The translations under genes and the position numbers were made by a program. A stretch of 35,832 nucleotides of DNA from Escherichia phage vB_EcoM_APEC. Of the stretch, positions 10,358-23,877 are shown piece by piece. Location: the sequence record MT664721; one strand, given 5' to 3'. The first letter of the stretch is position 1; each line of letters begins with the position of its first letter. The notes beneath the pieces are model-generated. The model ran no database searches and was not told where the DNA came from. It was given only the letters and a program-made list of their open reading frames with translations.

Positions 10358-12787
10358 ATGTCAGTACCAAATCAGATACCTGAAAGTAATTATGTAGGTA
10401 ACGGCACGACAACAACATTTGCTGCTAATTTTGAATATGCAAGTGATTCAGATGTGTTTGTTACTGTAAATGGAGTTGCACCAGAAATCGGACAGGCCGT
10501 CTTTGCTAATGGTGTATTTACTTTTATTACAGCCCCAGCAAACGGTACAGCAGTTCGCGTATATCGCAGCACACCAATTGAACGAGACACGGAATACGAT
10601 AACCACGACAATGTATTTCGTCCAAGAGTGGTTAATATTGACTTTGATCGTGTCTGGTTTGTGCTTCAAGAGTACCTATTATCGCTGGGCATTACCAACG
10701 CTAGGATTACACAGGAAATAGCAGACCGCATTCAAGCCGATGCAGAAATGATGAACTACATTCTGAATGAGGATAATGAACTAAAGGCCGACTATATCCT
10801 TCGTGATGAAAACCTTAAAACGGATTATATATACAGGGATGAGAACCTGAAAAAATATGTTGATCAAACATTGGGCGCTCTACTTAATCTTCCAGACTTT
10901 CAGGGAATTGAGGCACAATTTGTTAAAGATGTAAGCGGAAAGAACCAGCAAGAGATTAATAACGCTCTTGCTGGTGTTGGTGAAAAAGTCAAAAGAGAGT
11001 TTGTTTCAGTGTGGGATTTCTTTACAACCTCTGAGTATGCAACGTACAAAGCATCCCCAACAGCATTTGACGCAAGCAGACCCGTTCAAGAATTTTTCAA
11101 TTATATTGTTGCAAACGATACTCGTGTTGCCTACTGTTCAGGTGATTTTGTAACAAGTCAAGACCTTTTGCTTGGTTCTGGCTCAGCAAAAACAAAGCTG
11201 TTGTTCGGGAATGCTTCATTCAAAGCACTTAATGCTATTGATACGGTACTCAATATTAATGCCGGCTCTGATTTTGAGTGGGTTGGAATGATTACAACAA
11301 CAGGAACAGGAAGCACTGGGTCTAATTCTTATAATTCCCGAACTTGTCGAGTTGGCGTGCAAATAAGCTCACCTGGCAAAGCCTCACCACGGAACAAGTA
11401 CACAGCAATCACAGCAAACAATTTCAAAGAATTTGGGGTTTTTGCTAATGGCGTTGCTTCTCTTTCTTCCCTTGGATTCATCAGATCAAGTAATTGCGGT
11501 TCTGGCAAAAAAACAGCAGGCTACAGCCTTACTTCAAATTTCTCTAATGCAACAAATAGCGGCAGTTCTGGCTCAGTAAGTCAATTAACAACACTTGATG
11601 TTGATACTCTACCATCATCAGATTTAGCATCAGCTAACACAAACACACTACCCCTGCAAGCTATTATCAACGGCACGCCGTACTACATTCAGTCTATAGA
11701 TCGAGTTAATAACAAGATCACCATATTCCCGTGGATTGAGCCATCAATAACATCGGGAACCTTAACTTACATGTTCGGGGGTGCTGTTTGTGTTAATGGC
11801 AGGGATTCCTCTGTACTCGGAATTGAAATGATTGATGCGGTTAACTGCGGTGCTGCTTTAGTCTCCGGTGCATTATACCCCCCTGTTGTTGAGCGTATTG
11901 TTTCTCAAGTAAACGGTGCTGCGTTAGTGTTAGGTCAAAACCCTGCCTCTGCAATGATCGGTGGTTCTGTTGGTACTCTATATTGTGAAAACAATGACTT
12001 TGATTTAATTCGTGTTACTCGTTCAAAATTAAGTTTCAACATTCTTAACACTGTTGCATTTAACATGAACAAAGTCGGCTTTGCTTGTGCGACACGCTCA
12101 ACATCCGGCTCATACAGTGCTTTTGCGCATTTAAAAGGAATTAATATTTTTGAAAACGGTGTTCCTGTTCAATACCAGAGAAGCTCTGCTAGTCTTCCCT
12201 CACAAGCAACATGTGATGTGACCGACCCAAACAATAGTGATTTTATTTTCAATGGTGGTGCAACGGCTTCAACAATTACTTTAGGCACTCCAAACGATAA
12301 CTATGCAAACCTATTTGGTATTTATAAAAAGCGCGTTATTGTCTACGGAACAGGTCCGAACAACAGGCCTTCAACTGTAAACTTCACCGTTGCTGACACT
12401 GCAAACTACACGATCAATGCAGCAGGTACAACAACCACATCATATAGCGGATTTGATGGTTTTGCTGTATTCGATATTATTTATCGAAGTGACACAAAAC
12501 GCTTTTTAATATCACAAGTCAGCAATCGAGATAGGGCGGCGTCTGTAACATATAATCCGCCATCACTAACAGCATCAGGCACAGCAGGGGATTTTGTTTC
12601 AACGACAGTGAACTTAACTGGTGCAACTGTTGGAACGCCAGTTCACGCCGCTTTCACTCAATACAATGCTGATATTGAAATTAGTGCGCAAGTAAGTGCA
12701 GAAAATACTGTCACAGTTAAGTTCAAAAATACTTCTGCTGCTGCTGTTGATTTATCAAGTGGAACACTAACAGTAAAACTAATTTAA
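10358..12787 (+). CDS. tail fiber / tailspike protein, possible depolymerase
   Basis: N-terminus resembles the T7 gp17-type virion-attachment domain; Gly/Ser/Thr/Asn-rich C-terminal part typical of beta-helical tailspikes; followed by an intrinsic terminator. Confidence 0.8.
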   Translation: MSVPNQIPESNYVGNGTTTTFAANFEYASDSDVFVTVNGVAPEIGQAVFANGVFTFITAPANGTAVRVYRSTPIERDTEYDNHDNVFRPRVVNIDFDRVWFVLQEYLLSLGITNARITQEIADRIQADAEMMNYILNEDNELKADYILRDENLKTDYIYRDENLKKYVDQTLGALLNLPDFQGIEAQFVKDVSGKNQQEINNALAGVGEKVKREFVSVWDFFTTSEYATYKASPTAFDASRPVQEFFNYIVANDTRVAYCSGDFVTSQDLLLGSGSAKTKLLFGNASFKALNAIDTVLNINAGSDFEWVGMITTTGTGSTGSNSYNSRTCRVGVQISSPGKASPRNKYTAITANNFKEFGVFANGVASLSSLGFIRSSNCGSGKKTAGYSLTSNFSNATNSGSSGSVSQLTTLDVDTLPSSDLASANTNTLPLQAIINGTPYYIQSIDRVNNKITIFPWIEPSITSGTLTYMFGGAVCVNGRDSSVLGIEMIDAVNCGAALVSGALYPPVVERIVSQVNGAALVLGQNPASAMIGGSVGTLYCENNDFDLIRVTRSKLSFNILNTVAFNMNKVGFACATRSTSGSYSAFAHLKGINIFENGVPVQYQRSSASLPSQATCDVTDPNNSDFIFNGGATASTITLGTPNDNYANLFGIYKKRVIVYGTGPNNRPSTVNFTVADTANYTINAAGTTTTSYSGFDGFAVFDIIYRSDTKRFLISQVSNRDRAASVTYNPPSLTASGTAGDFVSTTVNLTGATVGTPVHAAFTQYNADIEISAQVSAENTVTVKFKNTSAAAVDLSSGTLTVKLI

Positions 12788-12792
12788 AGATT

Positions 12793-12818
12793 AAAGCCCT
12801 TCGGGGCTTTTCTTTTAC
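12793..12818 (+). terminator. rho-independent terminator after tail fiber gene
   Basis: Hairpin AAAGCCC-TTCG-GGGCTTT followed by TCTTTT. Confidence 0.6.
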
Positions 12819-12867
12819 TTACCAAATATGTTTGCTACTATAAGCGAAATTGATATAGGACTAACCG

Positions 12868-13206
12868 ATGGAAGATTTTGCAAAAGCTGTAGCGGATTAC
12901 TTCCGAAGCAATATAGGCTTGCTATCTGGCGTAGTGATAGGAATGCTTATTTATATTCTGACTGCGAAAAAAAAGACATGGCGAGAGAGGATTGTTAATG
13001 CTTCAGGTGGTGGCCTGCTGGCAATAGTTTTTGCTCCACACATTGCTACATTCTTTGACAAGCCGAATTACGCTGTGCCTATTGCGGTTCTTATTGTGTA
13101 TTTCAACGAGTGGTTACCAGAACTTATACAAACCTTTGCACCGAAATACATTAAAGTCCTCATTAAGCGTTTTACCGGAGTTGACCTAGATGACTCAAAT
13201 AAGTAA
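12868..13206 (+). CDS. holin-like membrane protein, 112 aa
   Basis: Two to three predicted hydrophobic helices; directly upstream of the endolysin. Confidence 0.5.
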   Translation: MEDFAKAVADYFRSNIGLLSGVVIGMLIYILTAKKKTWRERIVNASGGGLLAIVFAPHIATFFDKPNYAVPIAVLIVYFNEWLPELIQTFAPKYIKVLIKRFTGVDLDDSNK

Positions 13207-13474
13207 CTTCACATGGGGAGTGTTGCTAGAGAATCTAGCACTCTTTATTGTATTCCTGTGTATTGCAAGCGTGGTTATACAGCACATGCGAAAGCAAATT
13301 GTATTGGGCGTATTCTGGCATATATCTTTTGTTATTGGTCTAGTGATTACTTTTACACTAATACTTGACCCATATCCTAGAATATTTGATGAAGCACAAA
13401 CAGCATATAAGTTATTTATTGCTGTAATTGCCGTTGGACTCTGCAATAAAATAAGCAAAGAAGGTGGGTTCTAA
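13190..13474 (+). CDS. membrane protein, 94 aa (second holin / antiholin candidate)
   Basis: Multiple hydrophobic segments; overlaps previous gene; precedes the endolysin. Confidence 0.45.
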   Translation: MTQISNFTWGVLLENLALFIVFLCIASVVIQHMRKQIVLGVFWHISFVIGLVITFTLILDPYPRIFDEAQTAYKLFIAVIAVGLCNKISKEGGF

Positions 13475-13475
13475 T

Positions 13476-14084
13476 ATGATCATGACAGAGAAAGGCTTTG
13501 CTGTTTTAAGGTCACATTTTGGTAGCTTGAAGCAATCGCAAGTTGACGGAATTAATACCATTGTTGAGCAGTTCAATGCTCAGGGTGTGACCAACTACAA
13601 CCATGCAGCCTACATGCTCGCTACAACTTGGCATGAAACTGCAAAAACCATGCAGCCAATTGAAGAATATGGAAAGGGTAAAGGCCGTCCTTATGGAACA
13701 TGGTACAAGAACAGCAAGGGTCTGCTTTACAGCTTTATAAACGGATTTAAAAAGGTTGCCTATCTGTTCAATGACCATCCCCATCTCTATTATGGTCGTG
13801 GCTACGTGCAACTTACATGGTTTGAAAACTACCAGAGAGCATCCAAGAAACTCGGCGTAGACTTTATAAATAATCCAGGGCTTGCACTAGACCCTAAACC
13901 TGCTGCTGATATTATGATTGTCGGAATGCGTGAAGGTTGGTTTACCGGAAAGAAACTGGATGATTACATTTCAGGAAATAAAAAAGATTACGTGGGCGCA
14001 AGGAAGATTATCAACGGACTAGATAAAGCTAAACTCATTGCTGATTACTCTGCAATATTTGAAAAGGCTTTGCGCCAGCCATAA
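13476..14084 (+). CDS. endolysin, glycoside hydrolase family 19 (chitinase-like) type
   Basis: Motifs HETAK...YYGRGYVQLTW resemble GH19 catalytic region; ATG at 13476 with AAGGTGGG upstream (track starts at GTG 13464). Confidence 0.75.
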   Translation: MIMTEKGFAVLRSHFGSLKQSQVDGINTIVEQFNAQGVTNYNHAAYMLATTWHETAKTMQPIEEYGKGKGRPYGTWYKNSKGLLYSFINGFKKVAYLFNDHPHLYYGRGYVQLTWFENYQRASKKLGVDFINNPGLALDPKPAADIMIVGMREGWFTGKKLDDYISGNKKDYVGARKIINGLDKAKLIADYSAIFEKALRQP

Positions 14085-14087
14085 GAA

Positions 14088-14107
14088 AAGCCCCATTATA
14101 GGGGCTT
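14088..14107 (-). terminator. intrinsic terminator between convergent transcription units (U-tract on minus strand)
   Basis: Hairpin AAGCCCC-ATTATA-GGGGCTT; the T-run follows only in the minus orientation; overlaps the last codons of the minus-strand gene 14096..14293. Confidence 0.55.
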
Positions 14108-14293
14108 GATATACATAGACTGGGTTATTTTGCCCATACATGATCTTGACCATTCTCCAAAACAATAGCCATAGAGAACACCATCAACATATTTGTAATA
14201 TAAGAACCCTCTTTCATTATCTATTCCAGCTCTCTCTGGTCTGTAATGCGTAGCGCCGTTAGGTGCATTTTCCTTTATTTCTTGCTCTGTCAT
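14096..14293 (-). CDS. hypothetical protein, 65 aa (paralog of 20887..21078)
   Basis: Shares MT.EEI...AP.GATHY N-terminus and IKPL C-terminus with the plus-strand 63 aa protein; terminal gene of the minus-strand operon. Confidence 0.5.
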   Translation of the reverse strand: MTEQEIKENAPNGATHYRPERAGIDNERGFLYYKYVDGVLYGYCFGEWSRSCMGKITQSMYIKPL

Positions 14294-14463
14294 TTTACTT
14301 CCTCACTTAACTTCTGTATCCCAAACTCATCATGAAACATCTGATACGATAATACCGCCTTCCATTGCTGACAGCTATCCAGCCATATATACCACTCATT
14401 CTCTGCAACTTTCATCCAATAATCCAGTCCATCCCAATGAGTAGCGCCTAGAGGTTTAGTCAT
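14290..14463 (-). CDS. hypothetical protein, 57 aa
   Basis: ATG (rc of 14461-14463) with GAGGTGA upstream, 2 nt after the stop of the upstream gene; the track's longer version overlaps the neighbour out of frame. Confidence 0.4.
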   Translation of the reverse strand: MTKPLGATHWDGLDYWMKVAENEWYIWLDSCQQWKAVLSYQMFHDEFGIQKLSEEVK

Positions 14464-14839
14464 GCTCACCTCGCAGGGCTTTATGTTCATGATCACCAAA
14501 GTATTCTTTATTTTCGTATCTATTGTTATTGCAGTTAAAACAATGCAATAGACTAAAACCTTCACGGTCACTAACAATTCCCTGCCAAGGTTCACCACAT
14601 GAACAAGTTCCGTGAATCATGGCTGACATAGATTGGCTCTTCCAGGCTTTAAGCTGAGCATTTAAATCATTAATTACTTTCTGCTGCTCTTGGAATGCGT
14701 ACCATGCGCCGTTTATCCAGCAAACAAGCTTTTGAAAGTTGATTAAGTCCGAGTGATACAAATTGTCATCACCAAAATAAATATGCTGGCTAAGACTATT
14801 TGCAATCTCAGGCAACTTCTCAAACTGTTCTCTCATCAC
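14456..14839 (-). CDS. hypothetical Cys-rich protein, 127 aa
   Basis: CSCGEPW...HCFNCN pattern suggests metal binding; tightly coupled in the minus-strand operon. Confidence 0.5.
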   Translation of the reverse strand: MMREQFEKLPEIANSLSQHIYFGDDNLYHSDLINFQKLVCWINGAWYAFQEQQKVINDLNAQLKAWKSQSMSAMIHGTCSCGEPWQGIVSDREGFSLLHCFNCNNNRYENKEYFGDHEHKALRGEHD

Positions 14840-15189
14840 CCTTCCTCCACGTCAAGTATGGCTTGTTTTACTCTTGCGGTGTTTATATACCCTATGCCAC
14901 AGTCCAGCTTGACCAGTAGGTCCGCATGTCCTGCATACTCACAAGCTGCAACATCAGCCTTGGCCTGATCTAAAGATTTGAATAGCCCGAGAATCTCATG
15001 ACTTTCGACAAGTCGCTTTAGGTCGCAAAGACTGACAAATGGGCAATTTTCGGTTGGAGCAATCGCTATAAATGTATATTCCATCATATCGGGCAGATAG
15101 ACATCGGTTTCTGGATAATCACACCAGCAATCAACAATAAGCTTTGCGGTTTTATATCCTTTCTTCTTCACAAACTCAGTCGCTTTCAT
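14836..15189 (-). CDS. hypothetical protein, 117 aa
   Basis: Coupled ORF in the minus-strand operon; no motif recognised. Confidence 0.5.
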   Translation of the reverse strand: MKATEFVKKKGYKTAKLIVDCWCDYPETDVYLPDMMEYTFIAIAPTENCPFVSLCDLKRLVESHEILGLFKSLDQAKADVAACEYAGHADLLVKLDCGIGYINTARVKQAILDVEEG

Positions 15190-15497
15190 CCTGCAATCTC
15201 CAAAAAATTAATAAACTGTTGTTTTAAATGTTTTAATCCACTTGCATTGATTGGCAAAACACCTGTTTCTTCATTGTTTACTGTTGCGTAATCATGCATC
15301 AGCTTAATCTTAATTCCATCAACTTCCACATCATTCCAAGACTGAAACCCATTGCCATCTTTAAAGCGTCTTATGTCACAGTCAACTTGAGCCATGACAT
15401 AAGCTTCGTCCTCACCTTGCTTAAATTCAACTTCAAATAAATCATCTTTCCAATTTGAAATCTTAACTTCAGCTTGTTCTGTAATGTTCATAATCAC
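15186..15497 (-). CDS. hypothetical mildly acidic protein, 103 aa
   Basis: Coupled ORF; net-acidic composition; no motif recognised. Confidence 0.5.
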   Translation of the reverse strand: MIMNITEQAEVKISNWKDDLFEVEFKQGEDEAYVMAQVDCDIRRFKDGNGFQSWNDVEVDGIKIKLMHDYATVNNEETGVLPINASGLKHLKQQFINFLEIAG

Positions 15498-15533
15498 CTC
15501 ACTTATTATGAGGCAATTATATATGCTTTAATA

Positions 15534-15710
15534 TTATTTAGCAACTGGTGAGCAGTAGTAAAACTTGCTTTCATTTGCTTCGTATCTTTCATTTAACTGG
15601 TGCGCCACATATTCGCATTCCTGCTTATCCGAAAAGCGCGAATGGCTCACAAGTTCATTGTAGTAGTCGCCATTAGTTAGAGCGACAAATAAAACGATTA
15701 CATAGCTCAT
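15534..15710 (-). CDS. small protein with N-terminal hydrophobic segment, 58 aa
   Basis: ATG at rc 15708-15710 with AGGTG upstream, just after the exonuclease stop; MSYVIVLFVALT looks like a signal peptide or membrane anchor. Confidence 0.45.
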   Translation of the reverse strand: MSYVIVLFVALTNGDYYNELVSHSRFSDKQECEYVAHQLNERYEANESKFYYCSPVAK

Positions 15711-15718
15711 TTTACACC

Positions 15719-16330
15719 TCAATACATTTCCAAAATTTTGTCTTTAATTGCTTGGGTCTGTTCATTGTAGAGCTTGACCAAGGCTTCTATGTTTTCAATC
15801 TTATCTCTTACATCATTCGCATAAACACGTTTAACAAATAACGGAAGATTCGGGCAGTAGCTTACAAAGTCCATCCATTGAAGTTCTGCACAGGAAATAC
15901 CGCCTATCAGTTGATCTATATGCTCCTTCGGTATTTCACCTGAACGCAAGATAGCAATCTGAGTCTTTGGTGTTTTAACCTTAATCTCTATGCCTCCAAT
16001 AGGGATTTTATCAGGAATGATCAATCCATCTGGTGAATAACCAAATCCCTTATTCTTCACAAAAGAAACCATAGAAACCGTATAGCCTGTCTTTTCCTCA
16101 TACCGCTGACGTGCTTTAGATTCTAGCTGCTGACCTCTTTTAGTCCATTCATTACCCTGAAAAACCTCTGCCGGTTCATGATTAATTAACTCATAAGCCA
16201 GACCATTAATATAGCTCTGAGCGCCTACTCCATTTGCCCGAATGGTTGAAATCTCCGAACAGGTGATTAGACCTAAGCGCAAGTCCAACCACTCAGGAGA
16301 ACCCTGTTCTATTCCGGTGATGATTTGCAT
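15719..16330 (-). CDS. YqaJ-like (lambda-exonuclease-type) recombination exonuclease
   Basis: N-terminal QGSPEWLDLRLGLITCSE resembles the YqaJ family; PD-(D/E)xK-like SPDG...EIK; paired with the ERF gene. Confidence 0.75.
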   Translation of the reverse strand: MQIITGIEQGSPEWLDLRLGLITCSEISTIRANGVGAQSYINGLAYELINHEPAEVFQGNEWTKRGQQLESKARQRYEEKTGYTVSMVSFVKNKGFGYSPDGLIIPDKIPIGGIEIKVKTPKTQIAILRSGEIPKEHIDQLIGGISCAELQWMDFVSYCPNLPLFVKRVYANDVRDKIENIEALVKLYNEQTQAIKDKILEMY

Positions 16331-17028
16331 TATTCACCCTTTTCCAGCTTGGCTAATTTGGTATTTAAAACCCCGACCCAATAATCGAAATCATTTTTAG
16401 GTATCTCGTGCAACTCACAGCCAATATGAGCCTCCATTAATCCTCTTGCTTCTGCACCAAACTGAGATAACTTTTTCTCTATAACAGAAACTTGCTGCGG
16501 TGAAATCGTAATAGCCACCTGCCCATCGTTATCTTCAGCAATAACCAGACCTAGCAATGCTCGCATAGTGTAACGCTGTGCATAACTAATTGCTGAGCCA
16601 TAAGACTGTATATCTGACTTGCTGCCTCCCTTATCCGGCGCAACCTCCATTGAAGACTCTTCGCTGTGCCCACCAACGTGCGAGCAGATGCACGTAACGC
16701 GAGATTTACCATCAGCACATGCTTGGGTAGCCCATCGAATAAACAAGCCATGCTTACGCAATACAGGGTCAATACGGCTTTGTATATACTCAAGCTTTGC
16801 ATACTTAGAGTTATGACCACGACTAGACTTTTCCAAAACTGGTTTTTCCATTTGAAATGCCAGCATTGCCTGATCAAATTGCTGCTTGGCCTGATTGCGC
16901 TGTACACGTTCATGAAGCTCAAGCATCTTTTCAAGTTTCCCCACGTCTGCATCTGGACTGGTTGCAACACGTTCAATAATGCTAATCATCGGGTCAACAT
17001 TATTATTTCTTTCGATTAACTCACTCAT
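16330..17028 (-). CDS. ERF-family single-strand annealing protein
   Basis: SKYAKLEYIQSRIDPVLRKHGL and SYAQRYTMRALLGL resemble conserved ERF regions (P22 Erf type); first gene of the minus-strand operon. Confidence 0.8.
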   Translation of the reverse strand: MSELIERNNNVDPMISIIERVATSPDADVGKLEKMLELHERVQRNQAKQQFDQAMLAFQMEKPVLEKSSRGHNSKYAKLEYIQSRIDPVLRKHGLFIRWATQACADGKSRVTCICSHVGGHSEESSMEVAPDKGGSKSDIQSYGSAISYAQRYTMRALLGLVIAEDNDGQVAITISPQQVSVIEKKLSQFGAEARGLMEAHIGCELHEIPKNDFDYWVGVLNTKLAKLEKGE

Positions 17029-17043
17029 TTTTAACCACCTCTC

Positions 17044-17089
17044 TTGTTGTAATGGATTTAATAATATAATATAGTACGTACTGTTGCAA
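17044..17089. promoter_or_regulatory. divergent sigma70-like promoter region with central 10 bp palindrome AGTACGTACT
   Basis: Plus strand: TTGTAA (17047-17052), 17 nt, TATAGT (17070-17075); also TATAAT at 17065-17070. Minus strand: TTGCAA (17084-17089), about 17 nt, TATTAT-like. Palindrome at 17073-17082 overlaps both. Confidence 0.45.
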
Positions 17090-17101
17090 GAGGAAATTTA
17101 T

Positions 17102-17260
17102 ATGGACAAACAAAACCGTACAAGATTGCAAGTCTCAATTCACAATGAAAAGGAAAAAGACCTTCTCGATAAACTTAAAAAACGAGAGAATTTTTCTGGT
17201 GAAACTAAAGAACTATGGCTGGCTAAGTTAAAAAGTGAGGAGAGTAAAAATGGAAATTGA
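17102..17260 (+). CDS. small ribbon-helix-helix-like protein, 52 aa (tentative)
   Basis: ATG at 17102 with AGAGGA upstream; RTRLQVSIHNEKEKDLLDKLKK resembles an Arc/CopG-type RHH; below track cutoff; overlaps next gene start by 11 nt. Confidence 0.3.
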   Translation: MDKQNRTRLQVSIHNEKEKDLLDKLKKRENFSGETKELWLAKLKSEESKNGN

Positions 17261-17609
17261 TATTCAAATTGACTTAAGACGTGGCGGTTTTGAAGCAATG
17301 CACCCAAATGCAAGGCTATTTAACTTTGATTCTGAAAAAATGGTTTATTTTGGCGAAGGATCGGAAGGCATTAATAGTCAATGGACTACTTGGTGCGCGT
17401 GCATTGGAATGTTGCACTTAGAGACTGGGGAAGCCAAAGCCCAAGCAGTGCCGGAATGCAAATGGTCTAAAAATCAAGGTGGGTTTTACGACACATCATG
17501 CATCAATGCTTTTGTGTTCCCAGAGTCTGATGACACTCCAGAATATCATGAATTTACGCATTGCCCTTTTTGTGGTGGAAAGTTAAGCGAACCTCAGGAG
17601 GCCAAATGA
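17250..17609 (+). CDS. hypothetical protein with C-terminal zinc-ribbon-like motif, 119 aa
   Basis: ATG at 17250 with GAGGAG upstream; C-terminal HCPFCGGKL. Confidence 0.5.
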   Translation: MEIDIQIDLRRGGFEAMHPNARLFNFDSEKMVYFGEGSEGINSQWTTWCACIGMLHLETGEAKAQAVPECKWSKNQGGFYDTSCINAFVFPESDDTPEYHEFTHCPFCGGKLSEPQEAK

Positions 17610-17968
17610 ACAAATTAAAAATAGCACATGACTATTTCATGAAACATGGAAGTCCTGAAAATTTCAGTACAGACATTGCAGAGGCATGGGAATATGCAGA
17701 CCGGATGATTGAGCAAGAACAGCGTCGAGAAGACAAAACCAGACCAGAGGTTTTACGCGACAAAGAATGGCAGCCGGACTGGTCGCAAGCTCCGGTTTGG
17801 GCGTATTACTGGGCTAGAGATAGCAACGGTTTGTGCCATTGGTATAGTGGGGAGGTATGTATAAATGAAAATGAATTCTACCCAAGTGAATTTGGACAAT
17901 TATGGGATGATGCACCACTTTTCGGCTACTCAGGCGACTGGCGCGAGTCACTAAGAAAGCGGCCATGA
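17606..17968 (+). CDS. hypothetical protein, 120 aa (shares a Trp-rich domain with 24706..24918)
   Basis: ATG at 17606 overlapping the previous stop, AGGAGG upstream; C-terminal pattern DWS.AP...W.A.DS.G...GDWRESL..RP. Confidence 0.5.
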   Translation: MNKLKIAHDYFMKHGSPENFSTDIAEAWEYADRMIEQEQRREDKTRPEVLRDKEWQPDWSQAPVWAYYWARDSNGLCHWYSGEVCINENEFYPSEFGQLWDDAPLFGYSGDWRESLRKRP

Positions 17969-18351
17969 ATTTATTTGATGCTGCGGAATATGCAGAAAGT
18001 TTAAGCAATTGCAAGAAACGTCCAGTCGGGTGCAGTCTTGCAATAAATGGTGAAGTGGTTGCCATTGGATTTAATCATGCAGACAGTAAATGTAAATGCA
18101 AAATGCATGAAGAAAATTCAAAGGTTGAACATGCTGAAATATGTTGTCTGAAGCATTACGAGTTTCTAAAACAGGACTGTTCAGAATTGGCAGTGACTTA
18201 CATCTGTTGCCTGAATTGCTCTAAAGAAATCGTAAAGCGTGGCATTAAGAAGGTGTACTACCGCGACCATAGACCCGAAACAGACAAACAGTTAGGCATT
18301 AACTATTTAAAATCACACAATGTAGAGGTATCGAACCAATGGAACAGTTAA
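17965..18351 (+). CDS. cytidine/deoxycytidylate deaminase-like zinc-binding protein
   Basis: HAE motif followed by CCLNC (PC..C-like) at the spacing typical of CMP/dCMP deaminases. Confidence 0.55.
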   Translation: MNLFDAAEYAESLSNCKKRPVGCSLAINGEVVAIGFNHADSKCKCKMHEENSKVEHAEICCLKHYEFLKQDCSELAVTYICCLNCSKEIVKRGIKKVYYRDHRPETDKQLGINYLKSHNVEVSNQWNS

Positions 18352-18866
18352 TTAAACAGATTGAACAATGGGCAGAAGATCGGAATATTATTAATGGGAG
18401 CAAACCAATTGACCAAGCTATGAAACTGTTTTCAGAATTTGGCGAACTCGCAGACAATGTAGGGAAGGGTCGTGATTGCCGCGATGATATTGGCGATGTT
18501 TTTGTTGTGCTGACTATTATGGCGAAGCAATTAAATCTTAACATCAAAGGTATCGAAATTGTTAAATCTGAATCTAAGCCAATATTTAACTTAAAAAATA
18601 TGGTTGTTGACCTAGGGATGTCTTTAAATTATTTTTCTCGTTCAGAAAACCAATTAAACTTAAAAAATGCGGTTAATGAGTTACAAACAATTTCTGCAAT
18701 TTATGGTTATGATTTAAAAGAATGCGTCCAAATCGCCTACAACGACATTAAGGACAGAAAAGGTATTTTATGGAATGGGGTATTTGTAAAAGAAAGTGAT
18801 TTGAGTTATAATGCTTGTGTTGAAGCTTATAGAGAATCGCTAAGTGAGAAAAACACAGAAAATTAA
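18339..18866 (+). CDS. MazG-like nucleoside triphosphate pyrophosphohydrolase
   Basis: FSEFGELADNV...DDIGDVFVVL matches the MazG E..GE...D..GD pattern. Confidence 0.55.
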   Translation: MEQLIKQIEQWAEDRNIINGSKPIDQAMKLFSEFGELADNVGKGRDCRDDIGDVFVVLTIMAKQLNLNIKGIEIVKSESKPIFNLKNMVVDLGMSLNYFSRSENQLNLKNAVNELQTISAIYGYDLKECVQIAYNDIKDRKGILWNGVFVKESDLSYNACVEAYRESLSEKNTEN

Positions 18867-19497
18867 TATTATTGGTAGTAGGTTTGGCAACCTCGTAGTG
18901 CTAAGCGAGGTTGCTGAAAGAAACAAGAATGGTCATATTTTATATACTTGTGAGTGTGATTGTGGAAACAAAAAAAACATACTAGGGTCTTCATTAAGGC
19001 AGAAGCTTACGACTTCTTGCGGCTGTGTTCATAAAAAAAAGATAACAAAACACGGAATGGATGGAACTAAGGTTTATAGAACTTGGGTTGGAATGAGGAA
19101 TAGATGCAACAACCCAAATAATAGAAGATTTCACGATTATGGTGGCAGAGGTATTTCTGTTTGCAATGAGTGGAATAACTCTTTTGATGCGTTTTATTCG
19201 GATATGGGAGAACCAAAGCCAAATCAATCTATAGAACGGATAGACAACTCAAAACCATATTGCAAAGAAAATTGTGTATGGGCAACTAACAAACAACAGT
19301 GTAATAACAGGAGAAGCTCAGTGGTTGTTTATTTTGATGGTATTGAGATGACAGTAGAGGAATACTCAAAAAAAGTAGGCTTGTCAGTATCAGGGGCAAG
19401 AAAAAAAGTGATTCGAGAATTTACTAGATTTGGGAACGTATTCATCAAAGAATCTGACCCAGCCTATGCGGATGCTTGCAAGGAGCTGGGCAAATGA
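18844..19497 (+). CDS. HNH-family-like nuclease motif protein, 217 aa
   Basis: Cys-rich; YRTWVGMRNRCNNP...YGGRGISVCNEW...IERIDNSKPY..NCVWAT..QQCNNRR recalls phage HNH-like proteins; family assignment uncertain, start codon uncertain. Confidence 0.4.
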   Translation: MRKTQKINIIGSRFGNLVVLSEVAERNKNGHILYTCECDCGNKKNILGSSLRQKLTTSCGCVHKKKITKHGMDGTKVYRTWVGMRNRCNNPNNRRFHDYGGRGISVCNEWNNSFDAFYSDMGEPKPNQSIERIDNSKPYCKENCVWATNKQQCNNRRSSVVVYFDGIEMTVEEYSKKVGLSVSGARKKVIREFTRFGNVFIKESDPAYADACKELGK

Positions 19498-19754
19498 ACG
19501 AATCACAAAAAGCACTGGTGAATAACTTTGCTCAGTTCTTGGGTATATTGAATCTACCAGCCAATGACATATCTCCAAAAATAGATGCAGAAGGTAAAAT
19601 CTATTTTGAAGATCAGGAAACAATGAAAGCCTTCTCTGCATTCCGATATGCCTATGCAACAGGTTTTACTTCTGGTCGCAATGTCATGTATAAAAAACTG
19701 ACAGAACTGTCGGGAAAATACATGGCTGACCTTATGGCCGCAGCACCGAAATAG
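19494..19754 (+). CDS. hypothetical protein, 86 aa
   Basis: ATG overlapping the previous stop (ATGA) with AGGAG upstream. Confidence 0.45.
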   Translation: MNESQKALVNNFAQFLGILNLPANDISPKIDAEGKIYFEDQETMKAFSAFRYAYATGFTSGRNVMYKKLTELSGKYMADLMAAAPK

Positions 19755-19762
19755 GAGCTTAT

Positions 19763-19942
19763 ATGAAAAGCAAAATGACAGCAGCCATGTGGCTTGCTAA
19801 GATTCAATCTGAATGTAAGCACTTTTGGGTTCACGATAGTATGGGCTATCAAAAGAAGTGCAGCAGATGTGGAAAAGTGGAGCAACTTAAATTAACTACG
19901 CAATATTCAAAAACTTTTAAAGAAAGCTGGAATATTTATTAA
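19763..19942 (+). CDS. small Cys/His-rich protein, 59 aa
   Basis: ATG at 19763 with AGGAG upstream; ECKH...CSRCG pattern; below track cutoff; followed by a terminator. Confidence 0.35.
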   Translation: MKSKMTAAMWLAKIQSECKHFWVHDSMGYQKKCSRCGKVEQLKLTTQYSKTFKESWNIY

Positions 19943-19982
19943 AGTTTAGTTATATTGCAATAACTCACTTAAACCCTTTCCA

Positions 19983-20013
19983 AGCCCGGTGCCCTCACAC
20001 TGGGTTCTTTTTT
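19983..20013 (+). terminator. rho-independent terminator
   Basis: Imperfect 9 bp stem (AGCCCGGTG / CACTGGGTT with G-U pairs) followed by CTTTTTTG. Confidence 0.5.
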
Positions 20014-20015
20014 GC

Positions 20016-20043
20016 TTGCAAATAATATTAAAGCAATTATAAT
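20016..20043 (+). promoter_or_regulatory. sigma70-like promoter (TTGCAA, 16 nt, TATAAT)
   Basis: -35 TTGCAA at 20016-20021 and consensus -10 TATAAT at 20038-20043; GAGG at 20064-20067 and ATG at 20073 downstream. Confidence 0.5.
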
Positions 20044-20072
20044 AATAAAGCATACTAACAAGTGAGGTTAAA

Positions 20073-20258
20073 ATGTCTGCAAAAGAAAAAGCAAAACTGG
20101 CTTATAAAAAGCACTGTGCTGCGAAACTAAAAATTATCAATATCCGGTTTAACGTAGTTGATCATGAAGACGAAGCGCAAGCCTTTGAACATATCAAGTC
20201 GCAACCAAACCAGAAAAAATACATTCTTAAATTAGTAAAAGAGGACATGATTAAATGA
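20073..20258 (+). CDS. hypothetical basic protein, 61 aa
   Basis: First ORF downstream of the promoter at 20016-20043; GAGG RBS. Confidence 0.45.
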   Translation: MSAKEKAKLAYKKHCAAKLKIINIRFNVVDHEDEAQAFEHIKSQPNQKKYILKLVKEDMIK

Positions 20259-20890
20259 CTTTTCAAATCGGACAGGAAGTGGAAATTATAGGATTAGCAC
20301 CATTTGATGATAGATTCAATGTAGCTATAGGTGATAGAGGTATTATTATTAATATCAACACCAATTCTCATATAAAGATATCCAATCCAAAATTTACGGG
20401 AAGTGCTGCCGGAGAAGGTTTCTTTTATGCCCACAAGTCAAACGTAAGAATTGTTGAATCAAAACCTTTATACGAAGACTCAGGCAGAAACAAACTTAGA
20501 CTCTGGCTTAAGACTGTATGTAAAGAGTATGACTTTACCCTTGAGCAGCTATCATTAAATCTAGGATTCAACGAAAGCTATCTAAGCAATGTAGGCAGCA
20601 AGTCACGTTTTGAAAAACGCGGTGATATTAATTCAGAAGAATATAGAAAACTGGTTAATAATTTCCTTGTGCATGATTACAAAGAATGTAGACATACCAT
20701 GGCTCAGCTTGTTGAACAGATTGATAGCCTTGACGATGATCTGAGAGAGTGCAGGGGAGAAAACTACAAGTGCAATAGATACCTAGAACAAGCAAACAGG
20801 AATACCGAGTACTGGATGAGAAAGTTACCTAAAACCAGATTTCAGGCGTTTAAACTATTTATTAAAATGATGTTTGGAGGCCAGCCATGA
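20255..20890 (+). CDS. hypothetical protein with putative helix-turn-helix segment, 211 aa
   Basis: Central segment FTLEQLSLNLGFNESYLSNV resembles an XRE-type HTH; overlapping-stop coupling. Confidence 0.45.
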   Translation: MTFQIGQEVEIIGLAPFDDRFNVAIGDRGIIININTNSHIKISNPKFTGSAAGEGFFYAHKSNVRIVESKPLYEDSGRNKLRLWLKTVCKEYDFTLEQLSLNLGFNESYLSNVGSKSRFEKRGDINSEEYRKLVNNFLVHDYKECRHTMAQLVEQIDSLDDDLRECRGENYKCNRYLEQANRNTEYWMRKLPKTRFQAFKLFIKMMFGGQP

Positions 20891-21078
20891 CACCTGAAGA
20901 AATCAGAAAGAAAGCGCCAGAGGGAGCGACGCATTATATGAAGTCAATCATATTTTTGGATAGCGTTGACCTAATAACATATTTCAAGTGCGAAAATGGT
21001 AAATTCTTTGAATACTTCGCTCATCATTTCGCTAGGTACGAAACTGGTGTTCACCCAACCTTGATTAAGCCCCTCTAG
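20887..21078 (+). CDS. hypothetical protein, 63 aa (paralog of 14096..14293)
   Basis: Shared N- and C-terminal motifs with the minus-strand 65 aa protein; stop codon lies in the loop of the terminator hairpin. Confidence 0.5.
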   Translation: MTPEEIRKKAPEGATHYMKSIIFLDSVDLITYFKCENGKFFEYFAHHFARYETGVHPTLIKPL

Positions 21079-21090
21079 GGGCTTTTTATT
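21067..21090 (+). terminator. rho-independent terminator
   Basis: Hairpin AAGCCCC-TCTA-GGGGCTT followed by TTTTTATTTG. Confidence 0.65.
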
Positions 21091-21206
21091 TGCCCTTTAT
21101 ATTAGTTTTTCTTATTAATTTTAATTTAATTAATAAAAATTATTTATTTTACTTGTCACAATAAGATTAATAAAATAACCATATTGTTACTACCATCGAG
21201 GATAAG

Positions 21207-21437
21207 ATGATTTTACAAAAGCCTTTATTTTGGCACTGGTGCAAACAAGAAACTGGAAATATAGCATATTTGGCTAGAGAGTTAGGCGTAAGCCGAACAT
21301 TTGTTTCATTTCTTGTTAGTGGTAAAAAGCCCATACCTCTTGAACATATACCGAAGATTAAACAAGTAACTGGTCTAAAAGCCAAAGAATTGCGACCTGA
21401 TGTTTATGAAATTTTTAAGGATGATTTAGATGACTGA
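21207..21437 (+). CDS. Cro/YdaS-like helix-turn-helix DNA-binding protein
   Basis: GNIAYLARELGVSRTFVSFLVSGKKPIP resembles Cro/YdaS-type HTH regulators; first gene after the AT-rich intergenic region, upstream of the replication genes. Confidence 0.55.
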   Translation: MILQKPLFWHWCKQETGNIAYLARELGVSRTFVSFLVSGKKPIPLEHIPKIKQVTGLKAKELRPDVYEIFKDDLDD

Positions 21438-21642
21438 AATGCCAAAAGATGCCTTGTTCTTTATGAACTGGTTTGAAAAAGAATATCCAGAATTTGTAAA
21501 TCAGTATGGTCAGGTCAAAGGATTTTATGATCAATCCTCTGATGAGTTCCAGATTGAGGAAATACAGGATGCATATATCGAAAGAAAGAAAGGCAATGAG
21601 CCGTTACCCATGTATTTTGGCGACAGTGGTCAGTTTAGATAA
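21430..21642 (+). CDS. hypothetical protein, 70 aa
   Basis: Coupled ORF between the HTH gene and the replication initiator. Confidence 0.45.
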   Translation: MTEMPKDALFFMNWFEKEYPEFVNQYGQVKGFYDQSSDEFQIEEIQDAYIERKKGNEPLPMYFGDSGQFR

Positions 21643-21651
21643 GGAAAGGTT

Positions 21652-22389
21652 ATGAGTAATTGGATTCCAAATTCTTTTCAGCTTCCAAATTCATTGGTTG
21701 ATGAGAAGTACCTAGTAGAGCTAAAAGGTTCTCCATTAGCTATGTACATCTTCATTGTGAGGAAAACTAGAGGCTGGCAGAAAGAATGCGACAATATCAG
21801 CTTGTCTCAATTTGAGGAGTTTACCGGATATGGTAAAGATGCAGTTTTAACAGGAGTGAATAAGCTTGTTGAGCTTGGTTTAGTTAAGCGCGTTTCTTAT
21901 GAAAACAAGACTTCTTTTTACGAGTTAAATGATCAGCCATTACCTCCTGAAAAGATGCTGTCGGAAAATCCGCTAGCGGAAAATCCGACAAGTGCTGTCG
22001 GAAAATCCGACAAGTTGCTGTCGGAAAATCCGACACACAATAACAAAGAAAACAACTTTAAAAAAACAAATATAAATAACCATCCTAAAAAATTTGAGTT
22101 CAAGAAGGAATTACTAAAACTTGGGGCTAGTGAAGACTTAGTAAATGATTGGTTGATTGTTAGAGGGAATAAGAAGGCATCAAACACCCAAACTGCTTTC
22201 AATGGGTTTTTAAAACAAGTGAATGATTCTGGACTTGATGCTGAAACCGTTCTGAAAATCTGTGTTGATAAATCTTGGAGTGGCTTTAAGAAATCATGGT
22301 TATCGAATATTGATCTATCTGAATACCAGACAGAACCCAAGGAACCGAAGCAAGACAGTACATACGAAATTGAACTGGTGGAATATTAA
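21652..22389 (+). CDS. replication initiator, lambda O-like N-terminal domain
   Basis: LAMYIFIVRKTRGWQKECDNISLSQFEEFTG parallels the lambda O N-terminal domain (RKTYGW...SQ); iterons and an AT-rich tract lie inside the gene. Confidence 0.8.
   Translation: MSNWIPNSFQLPNSLVDEKYLVELKGSPLAMYIFIVRKTRGWQKECDNISLSQFEEFTGYGKDAVLTGVNKLVELGLVKRVSYENKTSFYELNDQPLPPEKMLSENPLAENPTSAVGKSDKLLSENPTHNNKENNFKKTNINNHPKKFEFKKELLKLGASEDLVNDWLIVRGNKKASNTQTAFNGFLKQVNDSGLDAETVLKICVDKSWSGFKKSWLSNIDLSEYQTEPKEPKQDSTYEIELVEY
21959..22035. repeat. four iterons (17 bp palindromic unit TGTCGGAAAATCCGACA), putative origin-binding sites
   Basis: Copies at about 21959, 21975, 21996 and 22019 (two perfect, two variant), followed by an AT-rich tract (22036-22100), all inside the O-like gene. 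Confidence 0.7.
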
Positions 22390-23693
22390 TGACTACATCA
22401 CTACATGCCATAAACTTTGAACAATACGTTCTATGTTTTCTAATGGACAATGAAAACGGATTAAGCTTTTTGAAAGTTAAACCCAAGGTTGAGCATTTCT
22501 ATGCTGACCGACACAAGGAGATATTCAAGGTAATTGAATCACTGGCATTTCAGGGAAAGCCTTATGATTATGAAATCGTCCTTGATCAACTAAAAACACT
22601 AGGTCTTGATTACAAGGTCGGGGGTGAGGAATATTTCAAGGAAATGATGAGTAACTTTGCAGCTCCTAGTGCTGTGAACGGATTTCATGAAAAACTGATA
22701 AAGCTGGAAGAATGCAGAAGGGTTGAGGAGGTAGGAAACAAGATTTTAGAACTATCACGAAACACTATGATTGATGATATGCCTAGAATCGCACAGGAGC
22801 TTGCTAGCGGCTTAGAAACTGTTTTTGTGAGTGACAGTACCATCAGCCTAACAGAAAGCGCTGCTGAAGCTCTGAGCGTCATTCACGATAAGTTGACTCA
22901 CAAGAAAGAAAACAGGGGAACAGCTTATGGCGTGAACACTGGTTTACGTGATCTTGATGCGACTCTAGGAGACATTGAGCCATCACATTTGTGTGTTATT
23001 GCTGCTGCCCCGGGTGGGGGTAAGACTACACTGGCACAAATGATTGCTTTGAATGCAGTGAAAAAGAATAATGCCCCTACAATTTTCTTTTCATGCGAAA
23101 TGGCACACTACGAGATAACCAACCGGATTATTAGTGCTGAGTGCAGAATCCCAATAGAGCGGATCCAGAACGGTACAATGGACAGTGATGATTACGAGCG
23201 CTGGGTTCAGACTACTGCAACGGTTTTCCCAAACTATAAGCTGGATATTGTAGACAAGGCAGCAATAAGCATTGGTGAAATCAGATCTGAAATACAGAGA
23301 ACAATTAAGCGACATGGGAAAGTTGGCTGTGTGATTGTTGATTACCTTCAGCTTGTTGAAGATAAAAATGCAAAGGATAACTTTGAAAAAATATCAAATG
23401 TTTCTACTGGTTTAAAACGAATAGCCAAAGACTTCAAGGTTCCGGTTATTGCTCTGTCGCAGCTAACGAAAGAGGCTCAAGGCAGAAGAATTACCATGTC
23501 GGATTTACGTGGTTCAGGCCAGATTTCACAAGATGCAGACAAGATCATTCTTTTGCATCCAGATGAAAAAACTCTAGGTCTGATTGTTGCGAATGTGGCA
23601 AAGAATCGGCAAGGACCTAAAGGTGAATCTCGGTTAATTTCCGCTTTTGATATATGTCAGTTTGGAAACATCAGACGGCAAGATGACTTTTAA
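22389..23693 (+). CDS. DnaB-family replicative DNA helicase
   Basis: DnaB-like N-terminal domain; Walker A AAPGGGKTTLAQ; RecA-like C-terminal region (DYLQLV, SQL). Confidence 0.85.
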   Translation: MTTSLHAINFEQYVLCFLMDNENGLSFLKVKPKVEHFYADRHKEIFKVIESLAFQGKPYDYEIVLDQLKTLGLDYKVGGEEYFKEMMSNFAAPSAVNGFHEKLIKLEECRRVEEVGNKILELSRNTMIDDMPRIAQELASGLETVFVSDSTISLTESAAEALSVIHDKLTHKKENRGTAYGVNTGLRDLDATLGDIEPSHLCVIAAAPGGGKTTLAQMIALNAVKKNNAPTIFFSCEMAHYEITNRIISAECRIPIERIQNGTMDSDDYERWVQTTATVFPNYKLDIVDKAAISIGEIRSEIQRTIKRHGKVGCVIVDYLQLVEDKNAKDNFEKISNVSTGLKRIAKDFKVPVIALSQLTKEAQGRRITMSDLRGSGQISQDADKIILLHPDEKTLGLIVANVAKNRQGPKGESRLISAFDICQFGNIRRQDDF

Positions 23694-23822
23694 TTTTAAA
23701 AACCAATGAGTAATGAGAGGAATATAAAATGTCAATTAAAGAAATCTGTCAGCACGAATATCAATATTCTTGGATTTATGATTCTTGGATGTGCATTCAT
23801 TGCGATAAATTAAAAAACAGTA

Positions 23823-23851
23823 TTGACTGAATTAATATTAAAGCATATAGT
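23823..23851 (+). promoter_or_regulatory. sigma70-like promoter (TTGACT, 17 nt, TATAGT)
   Basis: -35 TTGACT at 23823-23828 and -10 TATAGT at 23846-23851; GTGAGGA RBS and ATG at 23878 downstream. Confidence 0.5.
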
Positions 23852-23877
23852 TTGTATAAATTAGTGAGGACTAGATT

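What the first reader, a model, noticed from the sequence alone, without database searches (positions are those of the whole stretch)
14096..21078. Paralogous small proteins on opposite strands, each with its stop codon inside a terminator hairpin
Gene 14096..14293 (minus) and gene 20887..21078 (plus) share an N-terminal MT.EEI...AP.GATHY motif and the C-terminus IKPL. In both, the KPL codons form the left arm of an AAGCCCC/GGGGCTT hairpin with the stop codon in the loop. Each is the last gene of its transcription unit. The neighbouring 57 aa product (14290..14463) has a related KPLGATHW start.
Basis: seen in the sequence. Interest (0 to 1): 0.5.

Follow-up and report, generated by a model that had tools for sequence, protein, structure and literature searches.

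The report
Small phage genes ending inside terminators
Two diverged copies of a small phage gene of unknown function each end inside the hairpin that stops transcription, and this double use of the last three codons (Lys-Pro-Leu) recurs across the gene family in Acinetobacter-type phages; it is a tidy case of one DNA stretch doing two jobs, not a new kind of system.

Summary
Gene A (14096..14293, minus) and gene B (20887..21078, plus) are true paralogues: BLASTP E=1e-10, still 1e-9 without the IKPL tail, both in PHROG 6698/7563, and the same predicted fold. Each has AAG-CCC-C(TN) as the 5' arm of a 7-bp hairpin followed by a T-run, with the stop codon in the loop.

The window is the whole genome of 'Escherichia phage vB_EcoM_APEC', whose relatives are all Acinetobacter phages.

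Across 114 distinct family genes from phage and metagenome loci:
- 41 of 54 KPL-ending genes have the stop inside a terminator hairpin, against 2 of 60 genes with other ends.
- The arm always starts at the Lys codon.
- Left-arm changes fall at third codon positions (plus a synonymous CTN/TTA switch at Leu) and are compensated in the 3' arm, across 20 distinct stems.
- One EPL-ending gene is the only exception.

The A-tract plus (G)CCNC arm is the generic terminator form in these genomes. Internal copies lose the proline. Unrelated genes use the same terminators in other frames. So the KPL tail looks largely terminator-imposed on an ancestral basic-x-Leu end.

The gene centre is hypervariable, and module junctions fall at the stop codon or terminator. 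Protein function is unknown. Interest is moderate.

The parts
14096..14293 (-). Gene A, 65 aa (QMP81469.1). Member of the MTxEEIxxNAPxGATHY...KPL small-protein family. Its start overlaps the stop of the upstream gene (ATGA).
   Evidence: phrog_6698 E=2e-13; AF2 pLDDT 84.3.
14088..14107 (-). Terminator hairpin of gene A: AAGCCCC / TATAAT / GGGGCTT. The 5' arm is the Lys and Pro codons plus the first base of Leu, and the stop TAA (14098..14096) lies in the loop. It also sits 3 nt after the convergent endolysin gene, so it probably serves both strands.
   Evidence: -14.2 kcal/mol on the minus strand, -13.0 on the plus strand.
14078..14087 (-). T-rich tail (TTCTTATGGC) after the gene A hairpin. 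It is weaker than a canonical U-tract.
14290..14463 (-). 57-aa tandem neighbour and distant relative. It starts MTKPLGATHW, so it lacks the N-terminal helix, and it lacks the KPL end. It is an internal gene with no terminator.
   Evidence: hhalign probability 91%.
20887..21078 (+). Gene B, 63 aa (QMP81486.1), a paralogue of gene A. Its start overlaps the stop of the upstream 211-aa gene (ATGA).
   Evidence: phrog_6698 E=8e-10; AF2 pLDDT 87.6, same topology as gene A.
21067..21084 (+). Terminator hairpin of gene B: AAGCCCC / TCTA / GGGGCTT. [quoted passage not shown]
   Evidence: -11.7 kcal/mol.
21085..21094 (+). T-run (TTTATTTGCC) after the gene B hairpin. DNA from 21064 onward is 88.5% identical to phage WUPSU, where it follows an unrelated gene, so this is a mosaic module boundary.
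20016..20043 (+). Promoter-like site (TTGCAA-16-TATAAT) ahead of the three-gene unit 20073..21078 that gene B closes. It lies just after the terminator-like hairpin 19983..20006.
   Evidence: This is a consensus match only.
17061..17089 (-). Promoter-like site (TTGCAA-17-TATTAT) ahead of the leftward unit 17028..14096. That unit holds the Erf-like annealing protein, an exonuclease, small ORFs, the 57-aa relative and gene A.
   Evidence: This is a consensus match only.

Best explanation
Gene A and gene B are diverged paralogues of a phage-specific family of proteins about 55-70 aa long. The predicted fold is an N-terminal helix, a GATHY strand, a variable antiparallel sheet and a short C-terminal strand. 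Function is unknown.

In Acinetobacter-type phages the family typically sits, often in tandem, at the 3' end of early or accessory transcription units.

The hairpins are ordinary Rho-independent terminators of the local consensus: an A-tract, a (G)CCNC arm, a loop, a GNGG(C) arm and a T-run. In this family the reading frame runs into the terminator in one fixed register. AAR-CCN-CTN (Lys-Pro-Leu) is the 5' arm and the stop codon lies in the loop.

Shown:
- Paralogy of the two genes.
- The fixed register across the family.
- Compensated, almost entirely synonymous substitutions across 20 stems.
- The tight link between a KPL end and a terminal position.

Inferred:
- The tripeptide, above all the proline, is imposed by the terminator on an ancestral basic-x-Leu end.
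- The terminator doubles as a recombination junction, where unrelated gene bodies are exchanged.
- A ribosome at the stop codon covers the 3' arm, so termination should work only when RNA polymerase has outrun the lead ribosome. That would make these terminators leaky and sensitive to translation.
For: Paralogy:
- BLASTP results.
- Shared PHROGs.
- The same predicted topology.
- A profile search finds 71 cluster representatives, nearly all 55-70 aa, with the same conserved ends.

Selection acts on the protein at the N-terminus. Third-codon-position entropy is 1.39 bits against about 0.05 at positions 1 and 2.

Register and covariation:
- 42 distinct genes have the stop inside the hairpin: 41 KPL-ending and one EPL-ending.
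- The arm starts at Lys base 1 in 28 cases and one base earlier in 14.
- Lys third base pairs G-C in 22, A-T in 19 and G-T in 1.
- Pro third base pairs C-G in 24, G-C in 11, A-T in 6 and T-A in 1.
- Leu first base pairs C-G in 31 and T-A in 4.

Association with KPL:
- 41 of 54 KPL-ending genes have the stop in a hairpin, against 2 of 60 others and 2% in shuffles.

Evidence that the terminator imposes the tail:
- 59 of 84 non-family terminators in the same loci have GCC or CC arm cores.
- Internal copies end IKQI, YKRL, IKKL, FKKL or LKAF.
- In one orthologue pair the terminal copy ends ...DIKPL* and the internal copy ends ...DIKQI*.
- Long relatives align TR-SL to IK-PL.

Evidence for a module junction:
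- The WUPSU comparison.
- The same gene body occurs with different 3' flanks, and different bodies with the same flank.
- Eight Obolenskvirus loci share the terminator and the following 60 nt at 89% identity, while gene centres are about 50% identical, which is unalignable.

Ribosome occlusion:
- Moving a stop codon from 28 bp to 5 bp upstream of terminator tR2 cut termination efficiency from about 90% to under 10% in E. coli. Uncoupling translation reversed this (PMC4824070).
Against: - No 3'-end data exist for this phage, so termination at these sites is inferred from sequence.
- The T-run after gene A is poor (TTCTTATG).
- 13 KPL-ending genes have no hairpin over the stop.
- The residue before Lys is hydrophobic in most cases although it lies outside the stem.
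- AF2 models the C-terminal I-K(-P) as a strand at high confidence. Some selection on the tail at the protein level is therefore likely, and 'imposed by the terminator' may be only half the story.
- The counts are not phylogenetically independent.
- Ribosome-polymerase coupling is documented for E. coli, not for Acinetobacter.
Confidence: 0.72

Rival explanations
1. KPL is mainly a functional protein motif, such as the last beta-strand or a C-terminal recognition tail. The terminator was built onto it secondarily, because AAR-CCN-CTN happens to make a good 5' arm.
For: - 13 KPL-ending genes have no hairpin over the stop (11 with none within 45 nt), and six internal genes end IKPLNLGLHYGY.
- All left-arm changes are synonymous.
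- The residue before Lys is Ile, Leu, Val or Tyr in 37 of 42 cases although it is outside the stem.
- AF2 puts I-K(-P) in a strand, with pLDDT 88-94 for the last block.
Against: - 58 of 60 non-KPL family genes have no hairpin over the stop, and internal copies replace Pro with Q, R, K or A.
- The hairpin-less KPL cases keep the left arm while the right arm has been replaced by foreign DNA, so they look like relics of recombination.
- CC at Pro positions 1 and 2 matches the generic terminator core in these genomes.
- A three-base GTA insertion variant ends ...FKRIK* directly before the hairpin and is conserved in two contexts.
Confidence: 0.2
2. The small ORF works mainly as a leader-like gate, as in the pyrBI attenuator. 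Its translation state decides whether polymerase reads through into downstream genes, for example from early genes into terS and late genes in Obolenskvirus. The peptide itself would matter little.
For: - The stop-in-loop geometry predicts ribosome occlusion (PMC4824070).
- ATGA overlaps couple both genes to upstream translation.
- In Obolenskvirus the terminator sits between the early genes and terS.
Against: - The N-terminal 17 residues are under strong amino-acid selection, and the proteins are predicted to fold well.
- Gene A has no co-directional genes downstream, since it converges on the lysis genes.
- Many family members are internal genes without any hairpin.
- Downstream units have their own promoter-like boxes.
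Confidence: 0.08
3. Coincidence: two unrelated terminators of the common AAGCCCC type merely happen to be read in the same frame by two related genes.
For: AAGCCC-type arms are the commonest in these genomes. Also, 10 of 44 non-family genes with strong terminators have the stop overlapping the hairpin.
Against: - In the family 39 of 44 overlap, always in one register, with 20 different stems.
- 41 of 54 KPL-ending genes show the arrangement, against 2% in shuffles.
Confidence: 0.02
4. The hairpin is a site-specific recombination element, like an integron attC site, that mobilises the small genes as cassettes. It would not be a terminator.
For: The centre is hypervariable between conserved ends, and junctions fall at the hairpin.
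Against: - The stem is only 6-10 bp, is followed by a T-run, and varies in sequence.
- No conserved core site was seen.
- No integron-type integrase ORF is evident in the window's ORF list or in the flanking genes scanned, although the whole genome was not searched for one.
- The same hairpin type ends unrelated genes.
Confidence: 0.02

Closest known systems
PHROG families phrog_6698 and phrog_7563 (phage proteins of unknown function)
   Same: Both window proteins match over their full length, at E=2e-13 and 8e-10. Relatives are annotated only as hypothetical proteins in Acinetobacter phages.
   Different: The catalogue records only a protein cluster. It says nothing about the terminator overlap, the hypervariable centre or the tandem arrays.
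Rho-independent terminators placed next to or over a stop codon (Li et al. 2016, PMC4824070)
   Same: A GC-rich stem and T-run directly at the gene end. A ribosome at the stop is expected to block folding of the hairpin.
   Different: Here the stop is inside the loop, not merely a few bp upstream. The arrangement is also inherited across a gene family in a fixed register. In E. coli most termination sites lie 25-75 nt after the stop (PMC12207403).
pyrBI-type attenuator, in which a leader ORF runs through the terminator (as described in PMC4824070)
   Same: A short ORF whose translating ribosome can physically prevent the terminator hairpin from forming.
   Different: - The pyrBI leader lies at the 5' end of an operon and relies on UTP-sensitive pausing.
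- These ORFs are 3'-terminal and encode conserved, foldable proteins.
- One of them (gene A) has nothing co-directional downstream.
Mosaic module boundaries and 'moron'-style units in tailed phages (gene flanked by promoter and terminator; from my own knowledge of the Hendrix and Juhala work)
   Same: Accessory genes bounded by a terminator, with exchange junctions at the gene ends.
   Different: The junction lies inside the last codons, so whichever body is inserted inherits the KPL-stop. The 5' boundary is a conserved coding segment of 17 codons rather than a promoter.
Bidirectional terminators between convergent genes
   Same: The gene A hairpin lies 3 nt after the convergent endolysin stop and folds on both strands. 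In L054, L065 and L106 a single palindromic hairpin holds both stop codons.
   Different: On the plus strand the gene A hairpin has no T-run, so termination of the lysis transcript there is doubtful.

Membership tests
PHROG 6698/7563 small-protein family | Significant full-length match to the family HMM | tested here: met
   gene A 2e-13 and 5.4e-7; gene B 8e-10 and 8.9e-8. My own family HMM scores both at about 1e-22.
PHROG 6698/7563 small-protein family | Shared fold | tested here: met
   AF2 models of A and B have the same element order: H3-9, E16-22, E27-36, E39-44, E47-50 and a C-terminal strand. In BFVD the next best hit after the identical protein is a 63-aa, 32%-identical protein with TM 0.83 (probably gene B), followed by Acinetobacter phage proteins.
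Rho-independent (intrinsic) terminator | GC-rich stem-loop (5 or more bp, short loop) | tested here: met
   Both have 7 bp with 5 G-C pairs and loops of 6 and 4 nt. Predicted stabilities are -14.2 and -11.7 kcal/mol.
Rho-independent (intrinsic) terminator | U-rich tract immediately 3' of the stem | tested here: met
   Gene B: TTTATTTG. Gene A: TTCTTATG, which is weaker. Both pass the scan's rule of 5 T in 8 bases, in part because the TT that closes the 3' arm can fall within the scanner's window.
Rho-independent (intrinsic) terminator | Position at the end of a transcription unit | tested here: met
   Gene A converges on the endolysin gene. Gene B is followed by an AT-rich spacer, a promoter-like site and a new gene set.
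Rho-independent (intrinsic) terminator | Stem maintained by compensatory change in relatives | tested here: met
   20 distinct stems and all four Watson-Crick pair types at the Pro third base. The hairpins were selected by a pairing rule, so a control is needed: 2% of downstream-shuffled sequences pass.
Rho-independent (intrinsic) terminator | RNA 3' ends mapped in the T-run | not testable with these tools
   No transcript data are available. The phage paper does not mention terminators.
Ribosome-gated attenuator (pyrBI type) | The translated ORF overlaps the terminator hairpin | tested here: met
   The last three codons and the stop lie in the hairpin.
Ribosome-gated attenuator (pyrBI type) | Co-directional regulated genes immediately downstream, without their own promoter | tested here: not met
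   Gene A has none, because the arrangement is convergent. Gene B and the Obolenskvirus sites are followed by promoter-like boxes.
Ribosome-gated attenuator (pyrBI type) | Signal-dependent pausing that sets the distance between ribosome and polymerase | not tested
   No pause-site analysis was done.
Integron-type gene cassette (attC) | Long imperfect inverted repeat with conserved core sites, and an integron integrase nearby | tested here: not met
   The stems are 6-10 bp perfect repeats of variable sequence followed by T-runs. No integron-type integrase ORF is evident in the window's ORF list or in the flanking genes scanned; the whole genome was not searched against a protein-family library.

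The most novel reading that the evidence does not exclude
The family is a terminator-anchored hypervariable cassette. The conserved first 17 codons and the terminator, whose 5' arm supplies KPL-stop, would act as the two anchors. Short-homology recombination would swap or duplicate unrelated gene bodies at the same genomic site. Phage annealing proteins such as the Erf-like protein and exonuclease encoded at 15719..17028 could catalyse this. The result would be a fast-changing repertoire of host-interaction proteins, possibly anti-defence proteins. In addition, the stop-in-loop geometry would make read-through out of the early unit depend on how closely ribosomes follow the polymerase.
Probability: 0.15. 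Interest if true: 0.7.

Novelty: new variant of a known kind. Interest (0 to 1): 0.4.

Why it matters
This is a clean natural example of dual coding. Three sense codons and a stop codon are also the stem and loop of a terminator, and the register has been kept while the stem sequence changed 20 times.

It has three practical consequences:
- A conserved C-terminal tripeptide can be a by-product of an RNA signal. That is a caution for motif hunters.
- It offers a natural test bed for the idea that ribosomes silence terminators placed at stop codons.
- It marks a hypervariable accessory-gene site in Acinetobacter phages that are being developed for therapy. The gene body differs completely between otherwise similar genomes. 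That pattern would be expected for genes engaged with host defences, although no function is shown here.

Tried and rejected
Searches that gave no functional lead:
- Pfam, NCBIfam and PDB sequence searches found nothing for the domain.
- The afdb50 library was not available.

Searches for more relatives:
- Two scans of genome contigs found no bacterial relatives. The only hit was one MAG contig labelled Streptococcus, which looks like a phage contig.
- Two long proteins in the profile search, P0013 and P0014, are repetitive or low-complexity false hits.
- The 135-aa ORF 17561..17968, whose AP.WA.YW motif looked similar, is not related: hhalign probability 1%.

Method problem:
- MAFFT did not place gaps in the loops of the 3'-end sequences.
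- I therefore did not use the covariation tool on that alignment. I counted pairs with my own script and used a shuffle control.

Ideas considered and rejected:
- The conserved N-terminal segment is not a nucleotide element. Its third codon positions are nearly saturated.
- The invariance of CC in the proline codon is not proof of protein-level selection. Unrelated terminators in the same loci have the same core.
- The attC-like idea was rejected on anatomy.
Full report
**What the window is**

Exact look-up of the two proteins returns QMP81469.1 and QMP81486.1 of 'Escherichia phage vB_EcoM_APEC', on a contig of 35,832 bp. The window is therefore the whole published genome, MT664721 (PMC8229158). 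That paper treats these genes as hypothetical and never mentions terminators.

Every detectable relative is an Acinetobacter phage. Megablast of 25 kb of the window finds nothing in 5,426 complete E. coli genomes.

**The observation**

Gene A (14096..14293, minus strand, 65 aa) and gene B (20887..21078, plus strand, 63 aa) exist as described.

In both genes AAG-CCC-C is the 5' arm of a 7-bp hairpin, AAGCCCC/GGGGCTT, followed by a T-rich run:
- In gene A the stop TAA lies in the 6-nt loop.

The RNA folds are predicted at -14.2 and -11.7 kcal/mol, with modest z-scores.

Gene A converges on the endolysin gene, which ends at 14084, 3 nt from the hairpin. Gene B closes a three-gene unit that begins after the terminator-like hairpin 19983..20006 and a promoter-like site at 20016..20043. 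It is followed by an AT-rich spacer, a promoter-like site and a Cro-like gene. Both genes start in an ATGA overlap with the preceding gene.

**Paralogy**

- BLASTP gives 34% identity over the full length, E=1e-10.
- Without the last four residues the E-value is 1e-9.
- The central parts alone do not align.
- Both proteins hit phrog_6698 and phrog_7563, both of unknown function.
- There are no hits in Pfam, NCBIfam or PDB sequences.

The 57-aa neighbour (14290..14463) is a distant relative that lacks the N-terminal helix and the KPL end (hhalign probability 91%).

**The family**

A profile search of 1.84 billion cluster representatives gives 71 hits, nearly all 55-70 aa. They share three features:
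- An almost invariant MTIEEIRKNAPDGATHY start.
- A hypervariable centre with a loose YYK..G..Y..W pattern.
- A KPL end in 59 of the 77 short proteins examined (the 71 profile hits pooled with close relatives), either as the last three residues or followed by one or two more.

The N-terminal motif is conserved as amino acids, not as nucleotides. Third-position entropy is 1.39 bits against about 0.05 at positions 1 and 2.

I fetched DNA for relatives from phage records, IMG/VR and metagenomes. Scanning all loci with a family HMM gave 114 distinct genes with their 3' flanks. Of 97 loci with hits, 32 carry two to four family genes and 25 have them in tandem.

**Terminator overlap is a family trait**

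| C-terminus | Stop inside hairpin with T-run | Hairpin just downstream | No hairpin |
|---|---|---|---|
| KPL (54 genes) | 41 | 2 | 11 |
| Other (60 genes) | 2 | 5 | 53 |

Shuffling the 45 nt after the stop gives a hairpin over the stop in 2% of KPL genes. Fisher's test gives 5e-17, but the genes are related, so this overstates independence.

In the 42 distinct stop-in-hairpin cases (41 KPL and one EPL):
- The 5' arm begins at the first base of the Lys codon in 28 and one base earlier in 14.
- Lys third base pairs G-C in 22, A-T in 19 and G-T in 1.
- Pro third base uses all four pair types: C-G 24, G-C 11, A-T 6, T-A 1.
- Leu first base pairs C-G in 31 and T-A in 4.
- Pro first and second bases are always C-G.
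- There are 20 distinct stems.

So the arm changes at synonymous positions and the 3' arm follows. The one exception is the EPL gene, where GAG pairs through a G-T wobble.

For comparison, among non-family genes with strong terminators in the same loci, the stop overlaps the hairpin in 10 of 44. These cases use varied frames. In the family the figure is 39 of 44.

**Which constraint comes first**

Four results point to the terminator as the main cause of the tripeptide, especially the proline:
- Unrelated terminators in these loci have the same arm. Cores begin GCC or CC in 59 of 84, and are C-rich in 50 against G-rich in 5.
- Family genes that are not last in a unit lack the proline. They end IKQI, YKRL, IKKL, FKKL, LKAF or IKIEY.
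- One orthologue pair differs only there...NWFKDIKPL* with a terminator against ...NWFKDIKQI* as an internal gene.
- Longer relatives in marine or Vibrio-like contigs continue into an RSLADIKRIVELE helix, sometimes followed by DUF551. They align TR-SL with IK-PL, which suggests an ancestral basic-x-Leu end.

Three results point to some protein-level constraint as well:
- 13 KPL-ending genes lack a hairpin over the stop.
- The residue before Lys is hydrophobic although it lies outside the stem.
- AF2 models the tail as a strand.

In most of those 13 genes the left arm survives while the right arm has been replaced by different DNA, or another terminator follows a few bases later. That looks like the relic of a recombination event.

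I therefore read the tail as dual-coded. Lys and Leu are acceptable to the protein, and Pro is supplied by the hairpin.

**The terminator as a module junction**

Homology between the window and phage WUPSU (88.5%) begins at 21064, which is ATTAAGCCC. In WUPSU the gene upstream is unrelated and reads that sequence as ..TAT TAA.

In eight Obolenskvirus loci the same terminator, which lies just upstream of terS, closes eight different gene bodies. Mean identities:
- 74% in the first 51 nt.
- 50% in the centre, which is unalignable.
- 89% in the last 12 nt plus the 60 nt downstream.

The same body also occurs with different 3' flanks, and different bodies occur with the same flank.

**Expected consequence**

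In E. coli, moving a stop codon from 28 bp to 5 bp upstream of terminator tR2 cut termination from about 90% to under 10%. Removing translation restored it (PMC4824070). Most E. coli termination sites lie 25-75 nt after the stop (PMC12207403).

With the stop in the loop, a terminating ribosome must cover the 3' arm. These terminators should therefore act only when the polymerase is ahead of the lead ribosome. This is inference and was not tested here.

**Verdict**

The finding is real and correctly read. The two components are ordinary: a catalogued phage protein family of unknown function and consensus intrinsic terminators.

What is new is their fixed, family-wide overlap with compensated synonymous change, and the hypervariable, junction-bounded nature of the genes. 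I rate it a new variant of a known kind, of moderate interest.

Noticed in passing
window 1..35832: The window is the complete genome of 'Escherichia phage vB_EcoM_APEC' (MT664721). However, 25 kb of it has no megablast match in 5,426 complete E. coli genomes, and all relatives are Acinetobacter phages. GC content (37-45%) and terminator style also look Acinetobacter-like. The lineage, and perhaps the natural host, deserve a second look.
   Followed up: partly
window 23878..24071 (+): A third stop-in-hairpin case, in an unrelated 62-aa ORF. It ends ...RRAAK*, with TAA (24064..24066) in the loop of GCCGC-TAAATAA-GCGGC (24055..24071). The T-run is weak. On the minus strand the same hairpin reads VKPLI* but there is no ORF.
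   Followed up: partly
window 24706..24918 (+) and 17561..17968 (+): A second pair of paralogous small proteins. The 70-aa product aligns with the C-terminal half of the 135-aa product (37% identity, E=3e-7). They share a DW..P...W.A.D..G core and a GDW[KR]ESLxxRP tail. There is no Pfam match.
   Followed up: partly
L054 about 1121..1139; also L065 and L106: One palindromic hairpin (AAACCCCTATAAGGGGTTT) serves two convergent genes and contains both stop codons. The family gene ends IKPL* on one strand, and an unrelated gene ends ENPL* or KTPL* on the other.
   Followed up: no
L001, L002, L010, L012, L017-L019, L031 (Obolenskvirus, just upstream of terS): Hypervariable site. Eight unalignable family gene bodies sit between a conserved 17-codon start and one shared terminator, AAACCGCTTTAACGCGGTTTTTCTTTTT. 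Within about 10 nt the terminator is followed by TGTGGTAT(T/A)AT, an extended -10-like box. Tandem arrays of two to four copies are common: 32 of 97 loci have at least two family genes.
   Followed up: partly
L008, L032, L037, L044, L056, L068, L070, L071, L104, L105 (metagenome and viral contigs): Longer relatives carry the same N-terminal GATHY domain followed by an RSLADIKRIVELE coiled-coil segment, and in some cases DUF551 (PF04448, E=2.4e-12). They are internal genes without a KPL end or a terminator.
   Followed up: partly
window 14253..14266 (+) and 20914..20932 (-): The terminator scan also flags small hairpins with T-runs on the antisense strand of the AP.GAT motif in both genes. GCNCC (Ala-Pro) is the reverse complement of GGNGC (Gly-Ala), so this is probably a by-product of the conserved amino acids.
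   Followed up: no
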